From NCBI GenBank assembly GCA_013329055.1, contig DUKY01000015.1:2339-66338 (forward strand): DNA of 64,000 nucleotides. The letters are read 5' to 3'. This document shows, one piece after another, positions 4,727 through 58,444 of the stretch. Position numbers and translations under genes: made by a program. The stretch's first letter is position 1. The number at the start of each line of letters is the position of its first letter. The stretch comes from Nanobdellota archaeon (lineage in GTDB: Archaea > Nanobdellota > Nanobdellia > Pacearchaeales > GW2011-AR1). Under the pieces are notes generated by a model. The model was given only the letters and a program-made list of their open reading frames with translations, searched no databases and had not been told where the DNA came from.

Positions 4727-4852
4727 ATTTATTTTGAAATCTTTCCTTAAAAATAACTTATCTCTAAATGTTGCACTTTACTAGTGATTTAAGATATTAT
4801 AATAACACTTCAGAGATTATATACTTATCATCTTATTTTATTTTCTATAAAC

Positions 4853-4922
4853 TATAAATGTGTAAAATTATAAATGTGTAAAATTATAAATGTGTAAAAT
4901 TATAAATGTGTAAAATTATAAT
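4853..4922. repeat. 16-bp tandem repeat (tataaatgtgtaaaat), 4 full copies plus a partial copy
   Basis: Exact copies at 4853, 4869, 4885 and 4901, with a partial copy from 4917. Lies about 35 nt upstream of the ATG at 4956. Each unit carries a TATA-like ttataaat. Confidence 0.95.
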
Positions 4923-4955
4923 AATATTAATAAACTTATATTTATTTATCAAATA

Positions 4956-6125
4956 ATGAGTAAAAAAAATGTTGATATTGTTTATGCTGTTGCATCTAAA
5001 CTAGGAAGTATTGGGATTGGAACAATTGCATATCATGCTATCAAAAAAGTTAATGATTCTCCGAATCTTTCTTATAATATTTTTTGTAGAGGTTATGATA
5101 ATAAATTAGATTTAAAATCAAAAAGCATTAAATCTTATGGATATTTAGAAACAATTTCATTGCCACTTAGATTTTTAGAAAAAAGTTTAGGATTAACATT
5201 AAATCCATTTAAATATATAAATTATTTTTTTGGTAAACTAATTAATAAAAATCTTCCTAATTGTAAGATTTATCATACCTGGGTTGGATTTGCTCCTGAA
5301 GCAATAATGAATGCTAAAAAAAATGGTGCTACATTAATCTTAGAAGGGGCCAATAGTCATCCCTTAAATTATTCAAAAATTTTAAATAAAGAATATAATA
5401 AATTAGGATTAAAAGAATTTTTAATAGATCCGAATTCATGGGAAAAACAATCTGAAATACTAAAAGAATTTGATTACGTGACCTGCACTTCTGATTTTGT
5501 TTATAATTCTTTTTTAGAAAGAGGTTTTAGTAAAAAACAATTAATCAAAATGCCTTATGGTGTTGAATTAAAAAATTTTAAAGTTAAGAATCATGTTAAC
5601 AAAAAATTAAAGTTTGTTTTTATTGGAAGTATACAAGTTAGAAAAGGGATTTACTACTTATTAAAAGCATGGGATGAGTTAAAATTGAAAGATGCTGAGT
5701 TAATTATTGTTGGAAGAGTTTGGGCTGATGCAAAAAAAATAGTTGATAAATATAAAGATAATAATACGATTAAATTTGTTGGCTTTGAGTCAAATCCTCA
5801 AAAATATTTAGAGAGTTCTGATGTTTTTGTTTTTCCTACTCTTGAAGAGGGGTCTGCCCTTGTCACATATGAGGCTATGGCCTCAGGTTTGCCATTAATA
5901 ACAACATTTAATTCTGGTACTATTGCAAGAGATAAAAAAGAAGCATTAATTGTTCCCGCAGGAAATGTTGAAGCGTTAAAAGAAAAAATAAAGTATCTTT
6001 ATGATAATCCCAAAATTATTTCTAAAATGGGAAAAGATGCAAGAAAAAGGGTTGAACAGTTTTCTTGGAAAGATTATGGGGAAAGAATTGCTAAATTTTA
6101 TGAAGAAATTTTAAATAAAAAATGA
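4956..6125 (+). CDS. Glycosyltransferase family 4 (GT-B)
   Basis: VFVFPTLEEGSALVTYEAMASGLPLITT... is the EX7E-type GT4 signature. Confidence 0.8.
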   Translation: MSKKNVDIVYAVASKLGSIGIGTIAYHAIKKVNDSPNLSYNIFCRGYDNKLDLKSKSIKSYGYLETISLPLRFLEKSLGLTLNPFKYINYFFGKLINKNLPNCKIYHTWVGFAPEAIMNAKKNGATLILEGANSHPLNYSKILNKEYNKLGLKEFLIDPNSWEKQSEILKEFDYVTCTSDFVYNSFLERGFSKKQLIKMPYGVELKNFKVKNHVNKKLKFVFIGSIQVRKGIYYLLKAWDELKLKDAELIIVGRVWADAKKIVDKYKDNNTIKFVGFESNPQKYLESSDVFVFPTLEEGSALVTYEAMASGLPLITTFNSGTIARDKKEALIVPAGNVEALKEKIKYLYDNPKIISKMGKDARKRVEQFSWKDYGERIAKFYEEILNKK

Positions 6126-52249: not shown

Positions 52250-53203
52250 TTATCCCAAACTCAAAATTAATTTAGCAATTATCTCTTCATTATGTCGAAC
52301 TAATGAAGTTTCTGAAATTAAATTCTCTCCAATAAATTTCGCCTTAAATTTTTTAAAATTTTCAGAATCAATTTTTACCGTCTGAGATTCTTCGCCCTTA
52401 TATTTATCCAATCTTTCTTGCGAAGGCATTTTTGAGTTATAAATTACATAATCAAGACAATCTTTTCCTAAGTACTTAATTAATTCATTCAAATGTTGAG
52501 TAATAGTAAAATTATTTGTTTCACCCTTTTTTGTCATAAGATTGCAAACGTAAACTTTTTTTGCTTTTGATTCATTTATTGCATTTGAAATATTTTCAAC
52601 AACCAAATTCGCAATTGTACTTGTATAAAGATCCCCCGGACCCAAAACAATTATATCTGCTTCTTTAATTGCTTTAATTGCCTTTTCATGTGCAAAAGCA
52701 TATGGCTCTAAAAATAATCTTTTAATTTTTAAATTTGAATTATGTTTGGGTATATCAATATTGGTTTCCCCCTTAACAATTTCACCGTTTTCTAACTCTG
52801 CACAAAGATTGCTTTTCTCAAGTGTTACAGGTAAAACATTTCCTTTAACATTTAGAATTTTGCATGCCGAATTAATCCCTTCTTCTTCTGTTCCTGTTAT
52901 TTTTGTTAAAGCAGTTAAAATTAAATTACCCATTGAATGATTCTTTAAACCTGCTCCTTCTTTAAATCTATATTCAAAAAGTGTTCTCATAATCTCTCGA
53001 TTTTCTGAAAGAGCAATAATGCTTCTTCTTATATCCCCTACAGGAAGAGTTCCAAATTCATCAATAAGCCGACCAGTTGAACCCCCTGAATCCATCATGG
53101 AAACAATTGAAGTTAAAATACAGTCATGTTTTTTCAATCCACTAAGAAGCGTATAAATTCCTGTTCCTCCGCCAATTAAAACTATTCTTTTCGGGTTTTT
53201 CAT
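52250..53203 (-). CDS. YvcK / CofD-like (UPF0052, gluconeogenesis-factor family) protein
   Basis: IVLIGGGTGIYTLLSGLK...SMMDSGGSTGRL...GDIRR. Confidence 0.75.
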   Translation of the reverse strand: MKNPKRIVLIGGGTGIYTLLSGLKKHDCILTSIVSMMDSGGSTGRLIDEFGTLPVGDIRRSIIALSENREIMRTLFEYRFKEGAGLKNHSMGNLILTALTKITGTEEEGINSACKILNVKGNVLPVTLEKSNLCAELENGEIVKGETNIDIPKHNSNLKIKRLFLEPYAFAHEKAIKAIKEADIIVLGPGDLYTSTIANLVVENISNAINESKAKKVYVCNLMTKKGETNNFTITQHLNELIKYLGKDCLDYVIYNSKMPSQERLDKYKGEESQTVKIDSENFKKFKAKFIGENLISETSLVRHNEEIIAKLILSLG

Positions 53204-53223: not shown

Positions 53224-53763
53224 TTATTTATAATTTATGAATTTATCACGAATTAATCCATTTTCTTCGCAATATTTCCAAAAATCATCTGAAGTATCAA
53301 AATTGGGGCAAACGGTTATAATCTCTTTTCTTTTTTGATGAAGTTTTGCTTCACGACCTAATTTTGAAAGGTAAGTTCCAACAAGATAATCTTCTGGTGT
53401 AAGTATTTTATTCAATTCTTGATATAGCCCTGTAGCGATTTTTTGTTTCTGTTTATCTTCCCTGACCTCAATAAAATTTATTGCCCAATAATTTGGAAGT
53501 TCACCCAAGTCATTATAGACTCCTGTTTTTAAAACACCAACAATTGATCTTGGATCTTCTTTTATTTCTTTAGCCAAAATAAATCTTGTAATATCCGGAG
53601 AAATCATTTTTGCCGGAGAAAAAAAATTAAATCCTTTAAAAACTTCTTGGCCTTCCTGATTTATTCTTAATGGGATTTTCCAATTTGTTCCTTCCAGTAG
53701 TTCTTCTTTCAATTTTTCTTTGCTCTTGCATTCAAAATATAAATTTTTCATAAAATTATCCAA
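53224..53763 (-). CDS. Hypothetical protein (possible acetyltransferase-like fold; weak)
   Basis: 179-aa ORF. KQKQKIATGLYQELNK faintly resembles GNAT motif A. Confidence 0.45.
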   Translation of the reverse strand: MDNFMKNLYFECKSKEKLKEELLEGTNWKIPLRINQEGQEVFKGFNFFSPAKMISPDITRFILAKEIKEDPRSIVGVLKTGVYNDLGELPNYWAINFIEVREDKQKQKIATGLYQELNKILTPEDYLVGTYLSKLGREAKLHQKRKEIITVCPNFDTSDDFWKYCEENGLIRDKFINYK

Positions 53764-53793: not shown

Positions 53794-53988
53794 TGCCCGG
53801 ACCTGTTCTCCTGCCTTCGCACGAAACTTTATGGATTATTATTTCTACCACGAAGTTACTCGTCGAACCCTTGGGTTCTTCATCCCAGAAATGCGCGGAC
53901 CTGTTCTCCTAACTTCGCTCGAAATCATTTGGATTATTATTTCTACCACGAAGTTACTCGTCGAACCCTCGGGTTCTTCATCCCGAAA
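53794..53988 (-). repeat. Two tandem units of about 97 bp directly 3' of tRNA-Gly, each a T-arm/acceptor copy split by an insert
   Basis: Units at 53794-53891 and 53892-53988. On the minus strand each reads ..CCGAGGGTTCGA-[about 66 nt]-GGTCCG(C/G)GCA, versus tRNA CCGGGTTCGAATCCCGGTCCGCGCA. Confidence 0.9.
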
Positions 53989-54060
53989 TGCGCGGACCGG
54001 GATTCGAACCCGGATATTCTGCTTGGAGGGCAGAAAGTCTAGCCATTGACCTATCCACGC
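53989..54060 (-). tRNA. tRNA-Gly (anticodon UCC by manual fold)
   Basis: GCGTGGA-TA-GGTC-AATGGCTA-GACT-T-TCTGC-CCTCCAA-GCAGA-ATAT-CCGGG-TTCGAAT-CCCGG-TCCGCGC-A. G1:C72, C2:G71, G3:C70 and A73 fit archaeal Gly. Loop position 33 reads C. Confidence 0.8.
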
Positions 54061-54143: not shown

Positions 54144-54269
54144 CGCCCGAGACAGGATTTTGCTTTCAATCACTCTCTAAATTTTTGGATTATTTTTCTC
54201 GTGTAATTGTTCGACCTGCGATTTCAAACTTATTTGAATTTAAGCAGGATTCAAATCCTTTTTAAAAAC
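54144..54269 (-). repeat. Partial copy of the tRNA-Arg 3' portion with a T-loop insertion
   Basis: Minus strand: ATCGCAGGTCGAA-[about 52 nt]-AAATCCTGTCTCGGGCG, versus tRNA GTCGCAGGTTCAAATCCTGTCTCGGGCG. A 17-nt exact copy of the tRNA 3' end lies at 54144-54160. Confidence 0.85.
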
Positions 54270-54344
54270 CGCCCGAGACAGGATTTGAACCTGCGACCTA
54301 AGCATTAGGAGTGCTTCGCTCTATCCAGGCTGAGCTACTCGAGC
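54270..54344 (-). tRNA. tRNA-Arg (anticodon CCU)
   Basis: GCTCGAG-TA-GCTC-AGCCTGGATA-GAGC-G-AAGCA-CTCCTAA-TGCTT-AGGTC-GCAGG-TTCAAAT-CCTGT-CTCGGGC-G. A clean 75-nt cloverleaf. Confidence 0.9.
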
Positions 54345-54351
54345 AAATGGA

Positions 54352-54632
54352 TTTGGAAGAAAACTCAGAAAATTGAAAAAATTCTCTGGGACTTCAACAG
54401 ACAGTGCAGTTGAAGTGATTCGAACTCTTCCCATTCGAATCTTAATGCGGAAGAAAACTCAGAGAATTCTTTTCATTCTCTGGGACTTCAACAGACAGTG
54501 CAGTTGAAGTGATTCGAACTCTTCCCATTCGAATCTTTATGTGGAAGAAAACTCAAAGAATTTTTTCAATTCTTTGGGACTTCAACAGACAGTACAGTTG
54601 AAGTGATTCGAACTCTTCCTATTCAATCTTTA
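54352..54632 (-). repeat. Three tandem units of about 93-94 bp directly 3' of tRNA-Leu (acceptor/T-arm minihelix-like copies with a two-hairpin insert)
   Basis: Units at 54352-54445, 54446-54539 and 54540-54632. Each reads (minus strand) ..TGGGAAG-AG-TTCGAATC-[insert]-TTTCTTCC(A/G/A)(C/C/A)A. Confidence 0.9.
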
Positions 54633-54716
54633 TGTGGAAGAAAGGATTCGAACCCTCGCAGGCACTAAGCCACTGGAGCCTTAATCCAGCCCGTTTGACC
54701 GCTCCGGCACTTCCAC
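54633..54716 (-). tRNA. tRNA-Leu (class II, long variable arm; the anticodon loop UUAAGGC gives a formal anticodon of AAG)
   Basis: GTGGAAG-TG-CCGG-AGCGGTCAA-ACGG-G-CTGGA-TTAAGGC-TCCAG-TGGCTTAGTGCCTGC-GAGGG-TTCGAAT-CCTTT-CTTCCAC-A. 84 nt. Confidence 0.8.
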
Positions 54717-58186: not shown

Positions 58187-58271
58187 AAATATCTTAAATA
58201 AACACGCGTTATAAAATTTGTGATTTTTCAAGATAAAAAGCTTTATAAAGTAGGAAAATTAGATAATTTTG

Positions 58272-58384
58272 AAGACGGCCATAATAGGTTGGAAATACCT
58301 GTTCCCATCCCGAACACAGAAGTTAAGCTTCCTATGTTAATGACTGTAGTGCCCGACAAGGTGCAAACTCATTAAGCTGTCTTT
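58272..58384 (+). rRNA. 5S ribosomal RNA (stand-alone)
   Basis: CCCATCCCGAACACAGAAGTTAAGC hallmark. The terminal helix AAGACGGC/GCTGTCTT closes the molecule. Confidence 0.85.
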
Positions 58385-58444
58385 CATTTTCTTTTAAAAT
58401 GCATTTAATGTAAGTTCTGCATCAATAACTTCTCTAGGCATTAT

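What the first reader, a model, noticed from the sequence alone, without database searches (positions are those of the whole stretch)
53794..53988. Gly units: T-arm/acceptor copies of tRNA-Gly split after TTCGA, with loop-only variation in short palindromes
The two 97-98-bp units each end (minus strand) in GGTCCGCGCA or GGTCCGGGCA, which is the tRNA 3' end. They start with ..GAACCC(GA/AA)GGGTTCGA, which resembles the tRNA T-arm CCGGGTTCGA. Three small palindromes are preserved between the copies: GAACCC..GGGTTC, ACGA-GTAACT-TCGT and TTCG-(AG/TG)-CGAA. In two of these, substitutions between the copies fall in the loops. The second unit ends 30 nt upstream of the start codon of the next protein gene.
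Basis: seen in the sequence. Interest (0 to 1): 0.6.

Follow-up and report, generated by a model that had tools for sequence, protein, structure and literature searches.

The report
Archaeal RtT-like repeats trailing tRNA-Gly
The two 97-98-base units after tRNA-Gly are copies of the tRNA's 3' end split by a structured hairpin, and they are a divergent archaeal version of the little-understood "RtT" repeats that follow tRNA genes in E. coli and many other bacteria.

Summary
Two tandem units (53892-53988 and 53794-53891, minus strand) follow tRNA-Gly(UCC), and each ends in the tRNA's last 10 nt (3 copies in the window against 0.08 expected).

Each unit is a T-arm/acceptor copy split after TTCGA. 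Two of the three "palindromes", however, are the two strands of one long covarying stem.

The units are not a local oddity. tRNAs of this Nanoarchaeia lineage and of other Woese-/Pacearchaeota are followed by one to five units or more, each ending in the cognate tRNA's 3' end.

The units' 5' box, GAUGA(A)GAACC-loop-GGUUCGACGAG, recurs just downstream of tRNA genes in DPANN archaea, Thermoplasmatota and several bacterial phyla. Rfam calls the Gammaproteobacterial copies RtT (RF00391, the E. coli tyrT-operon repeat and rttR sRNA). E. coli RtT has the same design, a tRNA-Tyr T-loop split after TTCGA.

The archaeal units replace the bacterial multi-hairpin core with one hairpin, and the Rfam model does not detect them. 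In this lineage that hairpin is also a dispersed, nested repeat module.

Copy number differs between near-identical strains. No RNA data exist, so co-transcription, cutting at the pseudo-3' ends and any function are inferred.

Verdict: a new archaeal variant of a known but poorly understood kind.

The parts
53989..54060 (-). tRNA-Gly(UCC). No CCA is encoded. The 3' end reads ...CCGGGTTCGAATCCCGGTCCGCGCA.
   Evidence: ARAGORN; Rfam tRNA model, 62.8 bits.
53892..53988 (-). Gly unit 1 (97 nt), made of linker TTTCGG, the box, a GA-bracketed hairpin, and a copy of the tRNA 3' end.
   Evidence: TRF; alignment; box HMM E=1.4e-5 in a 1.57-Mb database.
53957..53982 (-). Unit 1 box GATGAAGAACCCGAGGGTTCGACGAG. 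It contains the hairpin GAACCC(53971-53976)/GGGTTC(53963-53968) and the T-arm-like GGGTTCGA (53961-53968).
   Evidence: The same box, without the extra A, lies downstream of tRNAs in 69 GTDB loci.
53906..53959 (-). Unit 1 inserted hairpin ('core'): GA-GTAACTTCG-TGGTA-GAAAT-[AATAATCCAAATG]-ATTTC-GAG-CGAAGTTAG-GAG.
   Evidence: Covariation in 24 homologues. TGGTA is invariant in 24 of 24 and GA...GAG in 23 of 24. Minimum-free-energy fold.
53892..53901 (-). Unit 1 tail GGTCCGCGCA, identical to the last 10 nt of tRNA-Gly (end of the T stem, acceptor 3' strand and discriminator).
53794..53891 (-). Gly unit 2 (98 nt), a more decayed copy. Box at 53859-53884, core at 53808-53861, tail GGTCCGGGCA at 53794-53803. 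Two substitutions break stem 1, and the tail change would put G opposite G3 of the tRNA.
   Evidence: box HMM E=3.8e-5.
54144..54269 (-). Single Arg unit after tRNA-Arg(CCU), which lies at 54270-54344. The unit has the T-arm copy TCGCAGGTCGAA, a decayed core that keeps AAATAATCCAAA, and the tail AAATCCTGTCTCGGGCG followed by T7.
   Evidence: Relative L096 has three intact Arg units with a complete, covarying core.
54354..54631 (-). Three Leu units between tRNA-Leu(AAG), at 54633-54716, and tRNA-Arg. They follow the same logic, a T-arm copy followed by hairpins and the tail TTTCTTCC(A/G)CA. The hairpin pair is different: ACTTCAAC..GTTGAAGT and CAGAGAAT..ATTCTCTG.
   Evidence: TRF period 94, 3.1 copies; folds with z-scores of -2.1 and -3.0; tail copies.
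53224..53751 (-). Downstream protein gene (about 175 aa, no Pfam hit). TTTATAAA lies about 25-30 nt upstream of the ATG, just after unit 2.
   Evidence: The ATG, not the TTG, is the start conserved in L001 and L096.

Best explanation
The Gly units are RtT-type tRNA-trailer repeats in an archaeal, single-hairpin form.

**Shown: anatomy of one unit**
- Each unit is a partial copy of the 3' third of tRNA-Gly.
- Its T-loop is interrupted after A58 (GGGTTCGA|...|GGTCCGCGCA) by a hairpin of about 55 nt bracketed by GA...GAG.
- Upstream lies GAUGAAGAACCC, which pairs with the T-arm copy.

**Shown: relatives**
- The same design, with the same box of about 27 nt, sits just 3' of many different tRNA genes in DPANN archaea, Thermoplasmatota and Proteobacteria.
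- In each case the tail and the T-loop piece match the neighbouring tRNA.
- Rfam recognises Gammaproteobacterial members as RtT, the family of the E. coli tyrT repeats and of the sRNA RttR.
- Copy number changes between near-identical strains, and presence is patchy among related genomes.

**Inferred: how it works**
- The units are transcribed as the 3' trailer of tRNA-Gly. No run of 5 or more T separates the tRNA from the units.
- The trailer is cut into RNAs of about 97 nt at each pseudo-tRNA 3' end by the tRNA 3'-end machinery. In E. coli the annotated RttR runs from just after tRNA-Tyr to the unit's pseudo-CCA end.
- Arrays grow and shrink by unequal homologous recombination between units.
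- The tails are kept like the tRNA by gene conversion.

**Not known:** what the released RNA does. The conserved GA-rich box and the invariant UGGUA and GAG loops suggest that a protein or the tRNA-handling machinery binds it. The window's own two copies look partly decayed.
For: **Anatomy in the window**
- Anatomy and chance controls.

**Generality in this lineage**
- 15 of 44 tRNAs in the first set of loci have downstream copies of their own last 11 nt; none has upstream or reverse-complement copies.
- All 15 belong to this lineage: Gly, Arg, Leu(AAG), Leu(CAA), Lys, Asn and one intron-bearing tRNA.

**Other Nanoarchaeota**
- 13 of 57 tRNAs in other Nanoarchaeota loci have such copies.
- No copies lie kilobases away, so these are not ordinary integrated elements.

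**Cross-domain box**
- GATGAGAACC-N1-6-GGTTCGACGAG gives 69 GTDB loci.
- After an HMM search there are 94 unique hits. Of these, 81 have a same-strand tRNA within 1300 nt upstream, usually 5-70 nt for the first unit, and 57 have a tail copy of at least 12 nt.
- The window's units score E=1.4e-5 and 3.8e-5 against this HMM.

**Link to the known family**
- RF00391 (RtT) hits above its gathering score on Gammaproteobacterial box-containing units in L141, L149, L169 and L192, at 48.5-52.6 bits.
- It scores 133-138 bits on the four E. coli tyrT/tyrV units.
- One of those units is the annotated rttR. It starts 7 nt after tyrV and ends on the pseudo-CCA.
- The E. coli unit reads AAGGTTCGA|CTCGAG...GAGTA|ATCCTTCCCCCACCACCA, against AAGGTTCGAATCCTTCCCCCACCACCA in tRNA-Tyr.

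**Structure**
- Core covariation.
- Covariation of the hairpin's sixth pair.
- A closing helix between the 5' segment and the tail across the family: mean longest helix 5.23, against 4.41 ± 0.15 in permutations.

**Turnover**
- The window has 2 Gly, 1 Arg and 3 Leu units. L096 has 2, 3 and 2. L001 has 2 Gly units plus 3 extra cores.
- Among 26 other genomes with an identical tRNA-Gly 3' end, 5 have tail copies. L114 keeps only a truncated box.
Against: - The Rfam RtT model does not hit the window or any archaeal unit, even at E of 10 or less.
- The central domain differs: one hairpin here, against the bacterial multi-hairpin CGAAGAAC/CCCGAAGGGCGAGG core.
- The family's closing helix is at chance level in the window's units. 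The 5' CGGG has lost its CCCG partner.
- Unit 2 carries changes that break stem 1.
- Unit divergence between strains (about 8-9%) is no lower than at third codon positions of the neighbouring gene (8-11%). The individual copies are therefore not clearly under purifying selection.
- G.U pairs outnumber A.C mismatches 29 to 11. Without one inherited column the count is only 13 to 11, so the RNA strand is not proven.
- No transcript data could be found.
- Part of the box (GAACC/GGTTCGA) could be re-derived from any T-arm. Only GAUGA and CGAG are independent evidence of common descent.
Confidence: 0.7

Rival explanations
1. A mobile hairpin module of MITE/REP type. In this reading the core and its relatives are non-autonomous mobile DNA that inserts into hairpin loops next to AAUCC-like sequence. 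Targets would be T-loops of spare tRNA 3' copies and the core's own loop. The units would be selfish DNA with no RNA role. This rival is not exclusive of the main explanation: it could account for how the inserted hairpin got there.
For: - The core pattern occurs in 7 contigs of one MAG and in 23 metagenome loci, mostly away from tRNAs.
- There it sits in elements of about 135-230 nt bounded by matched inverted repeats.
- Those elements are found inserted in the apical loop of other cores (GAAAC-GATAA|element|ATCCACAAAG-TTTC). A coreless version also exists.
- Sequencing depth at the core is about 9 times that of its flanks.
- Copy number varies between strains, and divergence is near the neutral rate.
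- Distribution among genomes is patchy.
Against: - No transposase or integrase is consistently nearby. One rve-family gene lies near one copy only.
- There is no target-site duplication.
- There are no hits in viral contigs.
- This reading does not explain why the 5' segment, the T-loop piece and the tail all track the cognate tRNA.
- It does not explain the cross-domain conservation of the box, whose bacterial members are a known processed RNA.
Confidence: 0.25
2. Integration scars. In this reading the units are attR-like leftovers of site-specific integration of plasmids or viruses at the tRNA T-loop. These would be ordinary tRNA gene fragments, stacked in tandem by repeated integration or accretion.
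For: - Direct repeats of the tRNA 3' end start in the T-loop.
- The array anatomy is att-E-att-E-att, ending in a tRNA-end copy.
- tRNA gene fragments from integration are described as a pervasive feature of prokaryotic tRNA gene sets (PMC9897764 abstract).
Against: - No tail copy lies more than 900 nt from its tRNA in about 1 Mb of loci, and no integrase genes are enclosed.
- Units have a uniform size of about 95-180 nt, and one conserved structured box is shared across Bacteria and Archaea.
- A double-stranded DNA circle of about 100 bp is an implausible recombination substrate (inference).
- Against: the units are shown to be transcribed and processed like RttR.
Confidence: 0.1
3. A guide sRNA (C/D box or H/ACA) made as a dicistronic tRNA-sRNA precursor, as in Nanoarchaeum equitans. 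The GAUGA would be box C and the GA...GA motifs would be K-turns.
For: - N. equitans makes dicistronic tRNA-C/D sRNA precursors, and its tRNA-Gly(UCC) lies adjacent to one of its C/D box sRNAs (PMC3491384).
- The unit has GAUGA, and tandem GA...GA motifs flank its helices.
Against: - There is no D, D' or C' box at the required spacing. There is no pseudouridylation pocket, because the internal loop is only 5+3 nt.
- An ACA follows the hairpin only in some copies.
- The best Rfam snoRNA match is 16 bits, with E=1.7.
- The box is shared with bacteria, which have no C/D or H/ACA RNPs.
Confidence: 0.03
4. Spare or alternative 3' halves of tRNA-Gly, to be joined to a 5' piece by archaeal splicing as in split or permuted tRNAs.
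For: - Split and permuted tRNAs exist in Archaea. PMC3491384 covers Nanoarchaeum and PMC3218864 covers other archaea (listed).
- The units carry the acceptor 3' strand.
Against: - There is no bulge-helix-bulge motif at the hairpin boundaries. The two 3-nt loops face each other instead of being offset by 4 bp, as the sequence shows directly.
- The T-stem 3' strand is missing in the window's units.
- The tail of unit 2 mismatches the tRNA 5' strand.
- An intact tRNA-Gly is already present.
- The same design occurs in bacteria.
Confidence: 0.02

Closest known systems
RtT RNA (Rfam RF00391): the repeats of the E. coli tyrT operon and the sRNA RttR
   Same: - It sits immediately 3' of a tRNA gene on the same strand, in tandem units.
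- Each unit ends in a copy of the tRNA's 3' end.
- The T-loop copy is split after TTCGA.
- The conserved box is the same: GGAUGAGAA(c/g)C...GGUUCGA(c)uCGAG.
- The insertion is bracketed by ...CGAG and GAG....
   Different: - The archaeal units have one hairpin of about 55 nt in place of the bacterial multi-hairpin core of about 85 nt.
- They encode no CCA.
- The closing helix is short (T stem only) or, in this window, lost.
- The Rfam model does not detect them.
- Here the inserted hairpin is also a dispersed multicopy module.
tRNA gene fragments left by integrating mobile elements (PMC9897764)
   Same: Partial 3' copies of a tRNA lie downstream of the intact gene.
   Different: - Copies lie 85-520 nt away rather than kilobases.
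- No element genes lie between them.
- The copies are interrupted by a conserved structured insert and repeated in tandem.
[quoted passage not shown]
   Same: - A small structured RNA lies directly after a tRNA in a DPANN archaeon.
- The proposed release mechanism is tRNA 3' processing.
   Different: - There are no C/D boxes.
- The units copy the tRNA end.
- Homologues exist in bacteria.
Modular bacterial intergenic repeats (REP/BIME, BOX and similar; from my own knowledge)
   Same: - They are built from hairpin modules with variable copy number.
- Modules are mixed and nested in intergenic DNA.
   Different: - Here the units are anchored to tRNA genes and are tRNA-specific at both ends.
- No RAYT-like gene was seen.

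Membership tests
RtT RNA (RF00391) | Scores at or above the Rfam gathering threshold (45 bits) with the family covariance model. | tested here: not met
   No RtT hit in the window at gathering threshold or at E of 10 or less. No hit on 10 loci that hold archaeal units. E. coli units score 133-138 bits and other Gammaproteobacterial units 48.5-52.6 bits.
RtT RNA (RF00391) | Lies directly 3' of a tRNA gene on the same strand, often as tandem units. | tested here: met
   Unit 1 starts at the base after the tRNA-Gly discriminator; there are two units. E. coli is arranged the same way.
RtT RNA (RF00391) | Each unit ends in a copy of the cognate tRNA's 3' end. | tested here: met
   GGTCCGCGCA or GGTCCGGGCA at both unit ends, against 0.08 expected. 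Across the family, 57 of 81 units have such a tail. The copy here is 10 nt, against 19 nt in E. coli.
RtT RNA (RF00391) | Conserved 5' box GGAUGAGAAcC...GGUUCGAgucGAG, with the T-loop copy split after UUCGA. | tested here: met
   The window has GGGAUGAAGAACCCGAGGGUUCGACGAG, with one extra A. Box HMM E=1.4e-5 and 3.8e-5. The Rfam consensus and E. coli sequence are.
RtT RNA (RF00391) | Closing helix between a 5' G-rich segment and the T-stem/acceptor 3' strand of the tail, giving a minihelix-like shape. | tested here: inconclusive
   Across 52 units the mean longest helix is 5.23, against 4.41 in permutations. It is 6-10 bp in bacteria and 5-8 bp in some archaeal units (L204, L159, L151, L193). 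In the window it is only 4, which is chance level.
RtT RNA (RF00391) | Central multi-hairpin domain with CGAAGAAC and CCCGAAGGGCGAGG. | tested here: not met
   The window has a single hairpin with UGGUA/GAG internal loops and an AAUAAUCCA apical loop. The bacterial domain is shown.
RtT RNA (RF00391) | Released from the tRNA transcript as a discrete small RNA. | not testable with these tools
   Only 2-3-Mb SOLiD metatranscriptomes come from the same samples, and nothing from them laid on the region. In E. coli this rests on the rttR annotation and on Bösl & Kersten 1991, as cited in PMC3318445.
Archaeal C/D box sRNA | Boxes C (RUGAUGA), D' , C' and D (CUGA) spaced by 12-nt guides. | tested here: not met
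   Only a GAUGA is present, with no CUGA at the required positions (sequence). The Rfam sR45 match is 16 bits, with E=1.7.
Archaeal BHB intron or split-tRNA half | A bulge-helix-bulge motif (3-nt bulges offset by a 4-bp helix) at the insert boundaries. | tested here: not met
   The boundary loops CGA and GAG face each other across the same junction (sequence).

The most novel reading that the evidence does not exclude
RtT-type elements may be one cross-domain family of structured RNAs embedded in a copied tRNA T-loop. The family would share a GA-rich core of about 27 nt, GGAUGAGAACC-loop-GGUUCGACGAG.

- It has re-targeted to at least ten tRNA identities, including Gln, Gly, Leu, Ser, Glu, Arg, Tyr and Asp.
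- It has moved between Bacteria and Archaea.
- It could be a tRNA-dependent parasite, or a tRNA-mimicking regulator whose partner is part of the universal tRNA-handling machinery.

The DPANN single-hairpin form would be its minimal version.
Probability: 0.35. Interest if true: 0.8.

Novelty: new variant of a known kind. Interest (0 to 1): 0.6.

Why it matters
- **RtT is old but unexplained.** To my knowledge it has been known since the 1970s-90s as an E. coli tyrT curiosity of unknown function. It is filed in Rfam as a cis-regulatory element.
- **The design is wider than thought.** The same design and the same box follow tRNA genes in DPANN archaea, Thermoplasmatota and several bacterial phyla, always tailored to the neighbouring tRNA. 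This points to a widespread class of tRNA-linked RNA, conserved or mobile, that current annotation misses in Archaea.
- **A minimal form helps experiments.** It gives a single-hairpin form for structure and binding studies.
- **It explains assembly breaks.** Contigs break at tRNA loci in these MAGs, and this accounts for it.
- **It warns tRNA and repeat annotators.** Pseudo-tRNA 3' ends occur in tandem next to real tRNA genes.

Tried and rejected
- **K-turn readings.** I tried two. In one, the hairpin GAACCC/GGGUUC is the C stem with GAC as the bulge. In the other, GUUC/GAAC closes the core. Each fits only some units. The Arg and Lys units place the loop on the wrong strand, and most dispersed copies have GUG instead of GAG. 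I left this as "GA-bracketed helices".
- **Hammerhead ribozyme.** GAUGAG-stem-CGA resembles CUGAUGAG-stem II-CGAAA. The invariant U4 and A14 are G and C here, so I rejected it.
- **C/D box, H/ACA, BHB intron and split-tRNA half.** All rejected; see the rival explanations.
- **tmRNA resemblance.** GGAUUCGACGGG in tmRNA resembles GGUUCGACGAG here. I noted it from memory only and did not test it.
- **Strand test by G.U against A.C counts.** The count is 29 to 11, but only 13 to 11 without one inherited column, so it is inconclusive.
- **Selection test by strain divergence.** Units evolve at about the rate of third codon positions. This is uninformative because gene conversion among copies confounds it.
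- **Exact-pattern searches.** The first genome search, with a 38-mer, found nothing. A search of viral contigs for the core found nothing.
- **RNA evidence.** Two searches and two lay-downs gave nothing usable.
- **Literature.** I found no paper describing RtT-like elements outside enterobacteria or in Archaea. The library is incomplete, and the original RtT papers are not held.

Full report
**What is in the window.** On the minus strand lies a tRNA cluster. The table lists it in 5'-to-3' order.

| Element | Coordinates | Note |
|---|---|---|
| tRNA-Leu(AAG) | 54633-54716 | |
| Leu units | 54354-54631 | three tandem units of about 94 nt |
| tRNA-Arg(CCU) | 54270-54344 | |
| Arg unit | 54144-54269 | one unit of about 126 nt |
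| spacer | | AT-rich |
| tRNA-Gly(UCC) | 53989-54060 | |
| Gly unit 1 | 53892-53988 | 97 nt; flagged finding |
| Gly unit 2 | 53794-53891 | 98 nt; flagged finding |

- The two Gly units are 93% identical.
- Each ends in GGTCCG(C/G)GCA, the last 10 nt of tRNA-Gly. That gives three copies in 64 kb against 0.08 expected.
- Each carries the 26-nt box GATGAAGAACCC(G/A)AGGGTTCGACGAG, against 0 expected.
- Two independent groundwater metagenome runs reproduce the sequence exactly.
- The organism is a DPANN archaeon. The neighbouring CofD-like gene is 99% identical to one in 'Candidatus Nanoarchaeia archaeon SMAG_U8054'. The window is 28% G+C, and the tRNA genes encode no CCA.

**Anatomy of a unit.** Read on the tRNA strand, unit 1 is:

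TTTCGG | GATGAA-GAACCC-GA-GGGTTC-GA | C-GA-GTAACTTCG-TGGTA-GAAAT-AATAATCCAAATG-ATTTC-GAG-CGAAGTTAG-GAG-AACA | GGTCCGCGCA

- The other two 'palindromes' are the two strands of one 9-bp stem. That stem encloses a 5-bp stem and an apical loop.
- I aligned 24 homologous hairpins taken from Gly, Arg, Met and Asn units, a unit after an unassigned intron-bearing tRNA, and from dispersed copies. In this alignment 93.5% of cells pair and 8 of 14 pairs show compensatory changes. Controls with the 3' partner slid by 1-3 columns give 24-49%.
- The 5' internal loop TGGTA is invariant (24 of 24). The 3' loop is GTG or GAG. The stem is bracketed by GA...GAG in 23 of 24.
- The two window copies differ by 9 substitutions and 1 indel. 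Three substitutions fall in stems, and two of those break pairs in unit 2. 'Loop-only variation' is therefore not established from the pair alone.

**The units are a habit of the lineage.**
- Of 44 tRNAs in the first set of loci, 15 have a copy of their own last 11 nt within 700 nt downstream. None has an upstream or reverse-complement copy. All 15 belong to this Nanoarchaeia lineage.
- The units after Lys, Arg, Gly, Met, Leu and Asn tRNAs are all partial copies of the cognate tRNA's 3' part, with hairpin modules inserted in or next to the T-loop. One example is Lys: GCGGG[TTC to C-GA-core-GA-GCA]GAATCCCGTCGAGGTCA.
- Copy number differs between close strains, which differ at 8-11% of third codon positions:

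| Strain | Gly | Arg | Leu |
|---|---|---|---|
| Window | 2 | 1 | 3 |
| L096 | 2 | 3 | 2 |
| L001 | 2, plus 3 extra cores | not covered | not covered |

- Other Woese-, Pace- and Nanoarchaeota MAGs show the same habit for 13 of 57 tRNAs.
- Within one genome (L136) the T-loop copy tracks the cognate tRNA: GGTTCAACGAG after tRNA-Leu, whose T-loop is TTCAAAT, and GGGTTCGACGAG after tRNA-Gly, whose T-loop is TTCGAAT.
- No tail copy lies kilobases away. This argues against ordinary integrated elements.

**Link to a known family.**
- The 5' box is conserved far beyond this lineage. GATGAGAACC-N1-6-GGTTCGACGAG finds 69 loci among GTDB species representatives.
- These include Nanoarchaeota, Thermoplasmatota, Gammaproteobacteria, Burkholderiales, Opitutaceae and Chlamydiia.
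- Nearly all lie shortly downstream of a tRNA (Gln, Gly, Leu, Ser, Glu, Arg, Tyr, Asp, Val and others). They are followed, 60-150 nt later, by a copy of that tRNA's T-loop 3' half, T stem and acceptor strand, plus CCA in bacteria. They are often tandem.
- Rfam's gathering-threshold scan names the Gammaproteobacterial ones RtT RNA, RF00391.
- In E. coli K-12 the four tyrT/tyrV units score 133-138 bits. The annotated sRNA rttR is exactly one unit: it starts 7 nt after tyrV and ends on the unit's pseudo-CCA.
- A profile HMM of the box hits both window units at E of about 1e-5 in 1.57 Mb.
- The base that extends the box hairpin covaries (36 of 43 paired, against 24.3 in permutations).
- The base before GGTTC follows the cognate tRNA (43 of 65, against 23.9).

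**Where the window's units differ from classical RtT.**
- The Rfam model does not detect any archaeal unit, even at E of 10 or less.
- The bacterial multi-hairpin core is replaced by a single hairpin.
- The Rfam structure closes the element by pairing a 5' G-rich segment with the tail's T-stem/acceptor strand. That helix is significant across my 52 units (5.23 against 4.41 ± 0.15). It is clear in bacteria (6-10 bp) and in some archaeal units. In the window's units it is at chance level, because the tail keeps only GG of the T-stem strand.
- Unit 2 also has stem-breaking changes, so the window's copies look partly decayed.
- Presence is patchy. Among 26 other genomes with an identical tRNA-Gly 3' end, five have tail copies. 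L114 keeps only a truncated box.

**A lineage-specific twist.**
- The inserted hairpin ('core') is itself a multicopy module. It occurs in 7 contigs of one MAG and 23 metagenome loci, mostly away from tRNAs.
- There it sits inside elements of about 135-230 nt bounded by matched inverted repeats.
- Those elements are found inserted in the apical loop of other cores, and a coreless form exists.
- This suggests that the variable hairpin of these RtT-like units is exchanged with, or colonised by, a family of intergenic repeat modules.

**How it most likely works.**
- Shown: the anatomy, the tRNA-specific ends, the family link, the covarying stems, the copy-number turnover.
- Inferred by analogy with E. 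coli RttR, and because no run of 5 or more T separates tRNA-Gly from the units: the units are transcribed as the tRNA's trailer and cut at each pseudo-3' end into RNAs of about 97 nt.
- Also inferred: arrays change by unequal recombination, and gene conversion keeps the tails like the tRNA.
- The function of the RNA is unknown, here as in E. coli. [quoted passage not shown]
- No RNA data for this organism could be found.

**Verdict.** The units are a new, archaeal, single-hairpin variant of the known RtT kind. The cross-domain reach of the box is the most interesting result.

Noticed in passing
L081 5930-5500 and 4000-3780 (minus); L082 4290-4545; L086 6180-5960 (minus): The core hairpin also sits in dispersed elements of about 135-230 nt. 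These are bounded by matched inverted repeats, AAAAAAGyGTrT..GATTTTAAC and GTTAAAATC..AyACrCTTTTTT. Such elements are found inserted in the apical loop of other cores, giving nesting, and a coreless version exists. The left repeat also looks like a BRE/TATA promoter. I could not tell whether these are MITE-like DNA or one large structured RNA.
   Followed up: partly
window 54354-54631; L108 8614-8815 (minus): The Leu units use a different hairpin pair, ACTTCAAC..GTTGAAGT and CAGAGAAT..ATTCTCTG. The same kind of hairpins occurs in units after Leu(CAA), Asn, Val and Gly tRNAs of relatives, and inside the long intron of a tRNA-Asn gene.
   Followed up: partly
window 54345-54400; L096 6869-6925 (minus): The last Leu unit abuts tRNA-Arg by 7-8 nt. 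Its hairpin loop is a T-rich variant (TTTTTTCAAT) about 30 nt upstream of the tRNA in both strains. It may serve as the tRNA-Arg promoter.
   Followed up: no
window 54144-54269 versus L096 6420-6790 (minus): The window's single Arg unit has lost the 5' half of its core (ACGAGAAAAA instead of GTGGTAGAAGC). The relative L096 has three intact Arg units.
   Followed up: yes
L115 7191-7278: In a Pacearchaeota Arg unit, the core's apical-loop sequence ATAATCC runs straight into the tRNA tail (AATCCTACCGAGCGCG). It looks as if recombination occurred at the shared AATCC. The loop motif AAUAAUCCA resembles the 3' half of a T-loop.
   Followed up: no
L001 position 1 (contig DATDUI010000060.1): The public MAG contig begins exactly after the Arg unit, so these repeats break short-read assemblies at tRNA loci.
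   Followed up: no
window 52250-53203: Apart from the same species, the CofD/YvcK-like gene's best relatives (51-56% aa identity) include many bins labelled Saccharibacteria, Paceibacteria and other CPR bacteria, alongside Woesearchaeota. This may reflect transfer between DPANN and CPR, or mislabelled bins.
   Followed up: no
L114 about 4934-4960: Downstream of a Woesearchaeota tRNA-Gly only TTGGATGAGAACCCGA remains, followed by unrelated sequence. This is a truncated box relic, and it shows unit loss.
   Followed up: no
window 4849-4921: A near-perfect 16-nt tandem repeat (AAATTATAAATGTGTA, 4.6 copies, 98% matches). I did not examine it.
   Followed up: no
window 58271-58385: A stand-alone 5S rRNA gene (67 bits) about 3.5 kb from the tRNA cluster. 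Relatives L115 and L139 also have a 5S gene near their Leu-Arg-Gly cluster.
   Followed up: no
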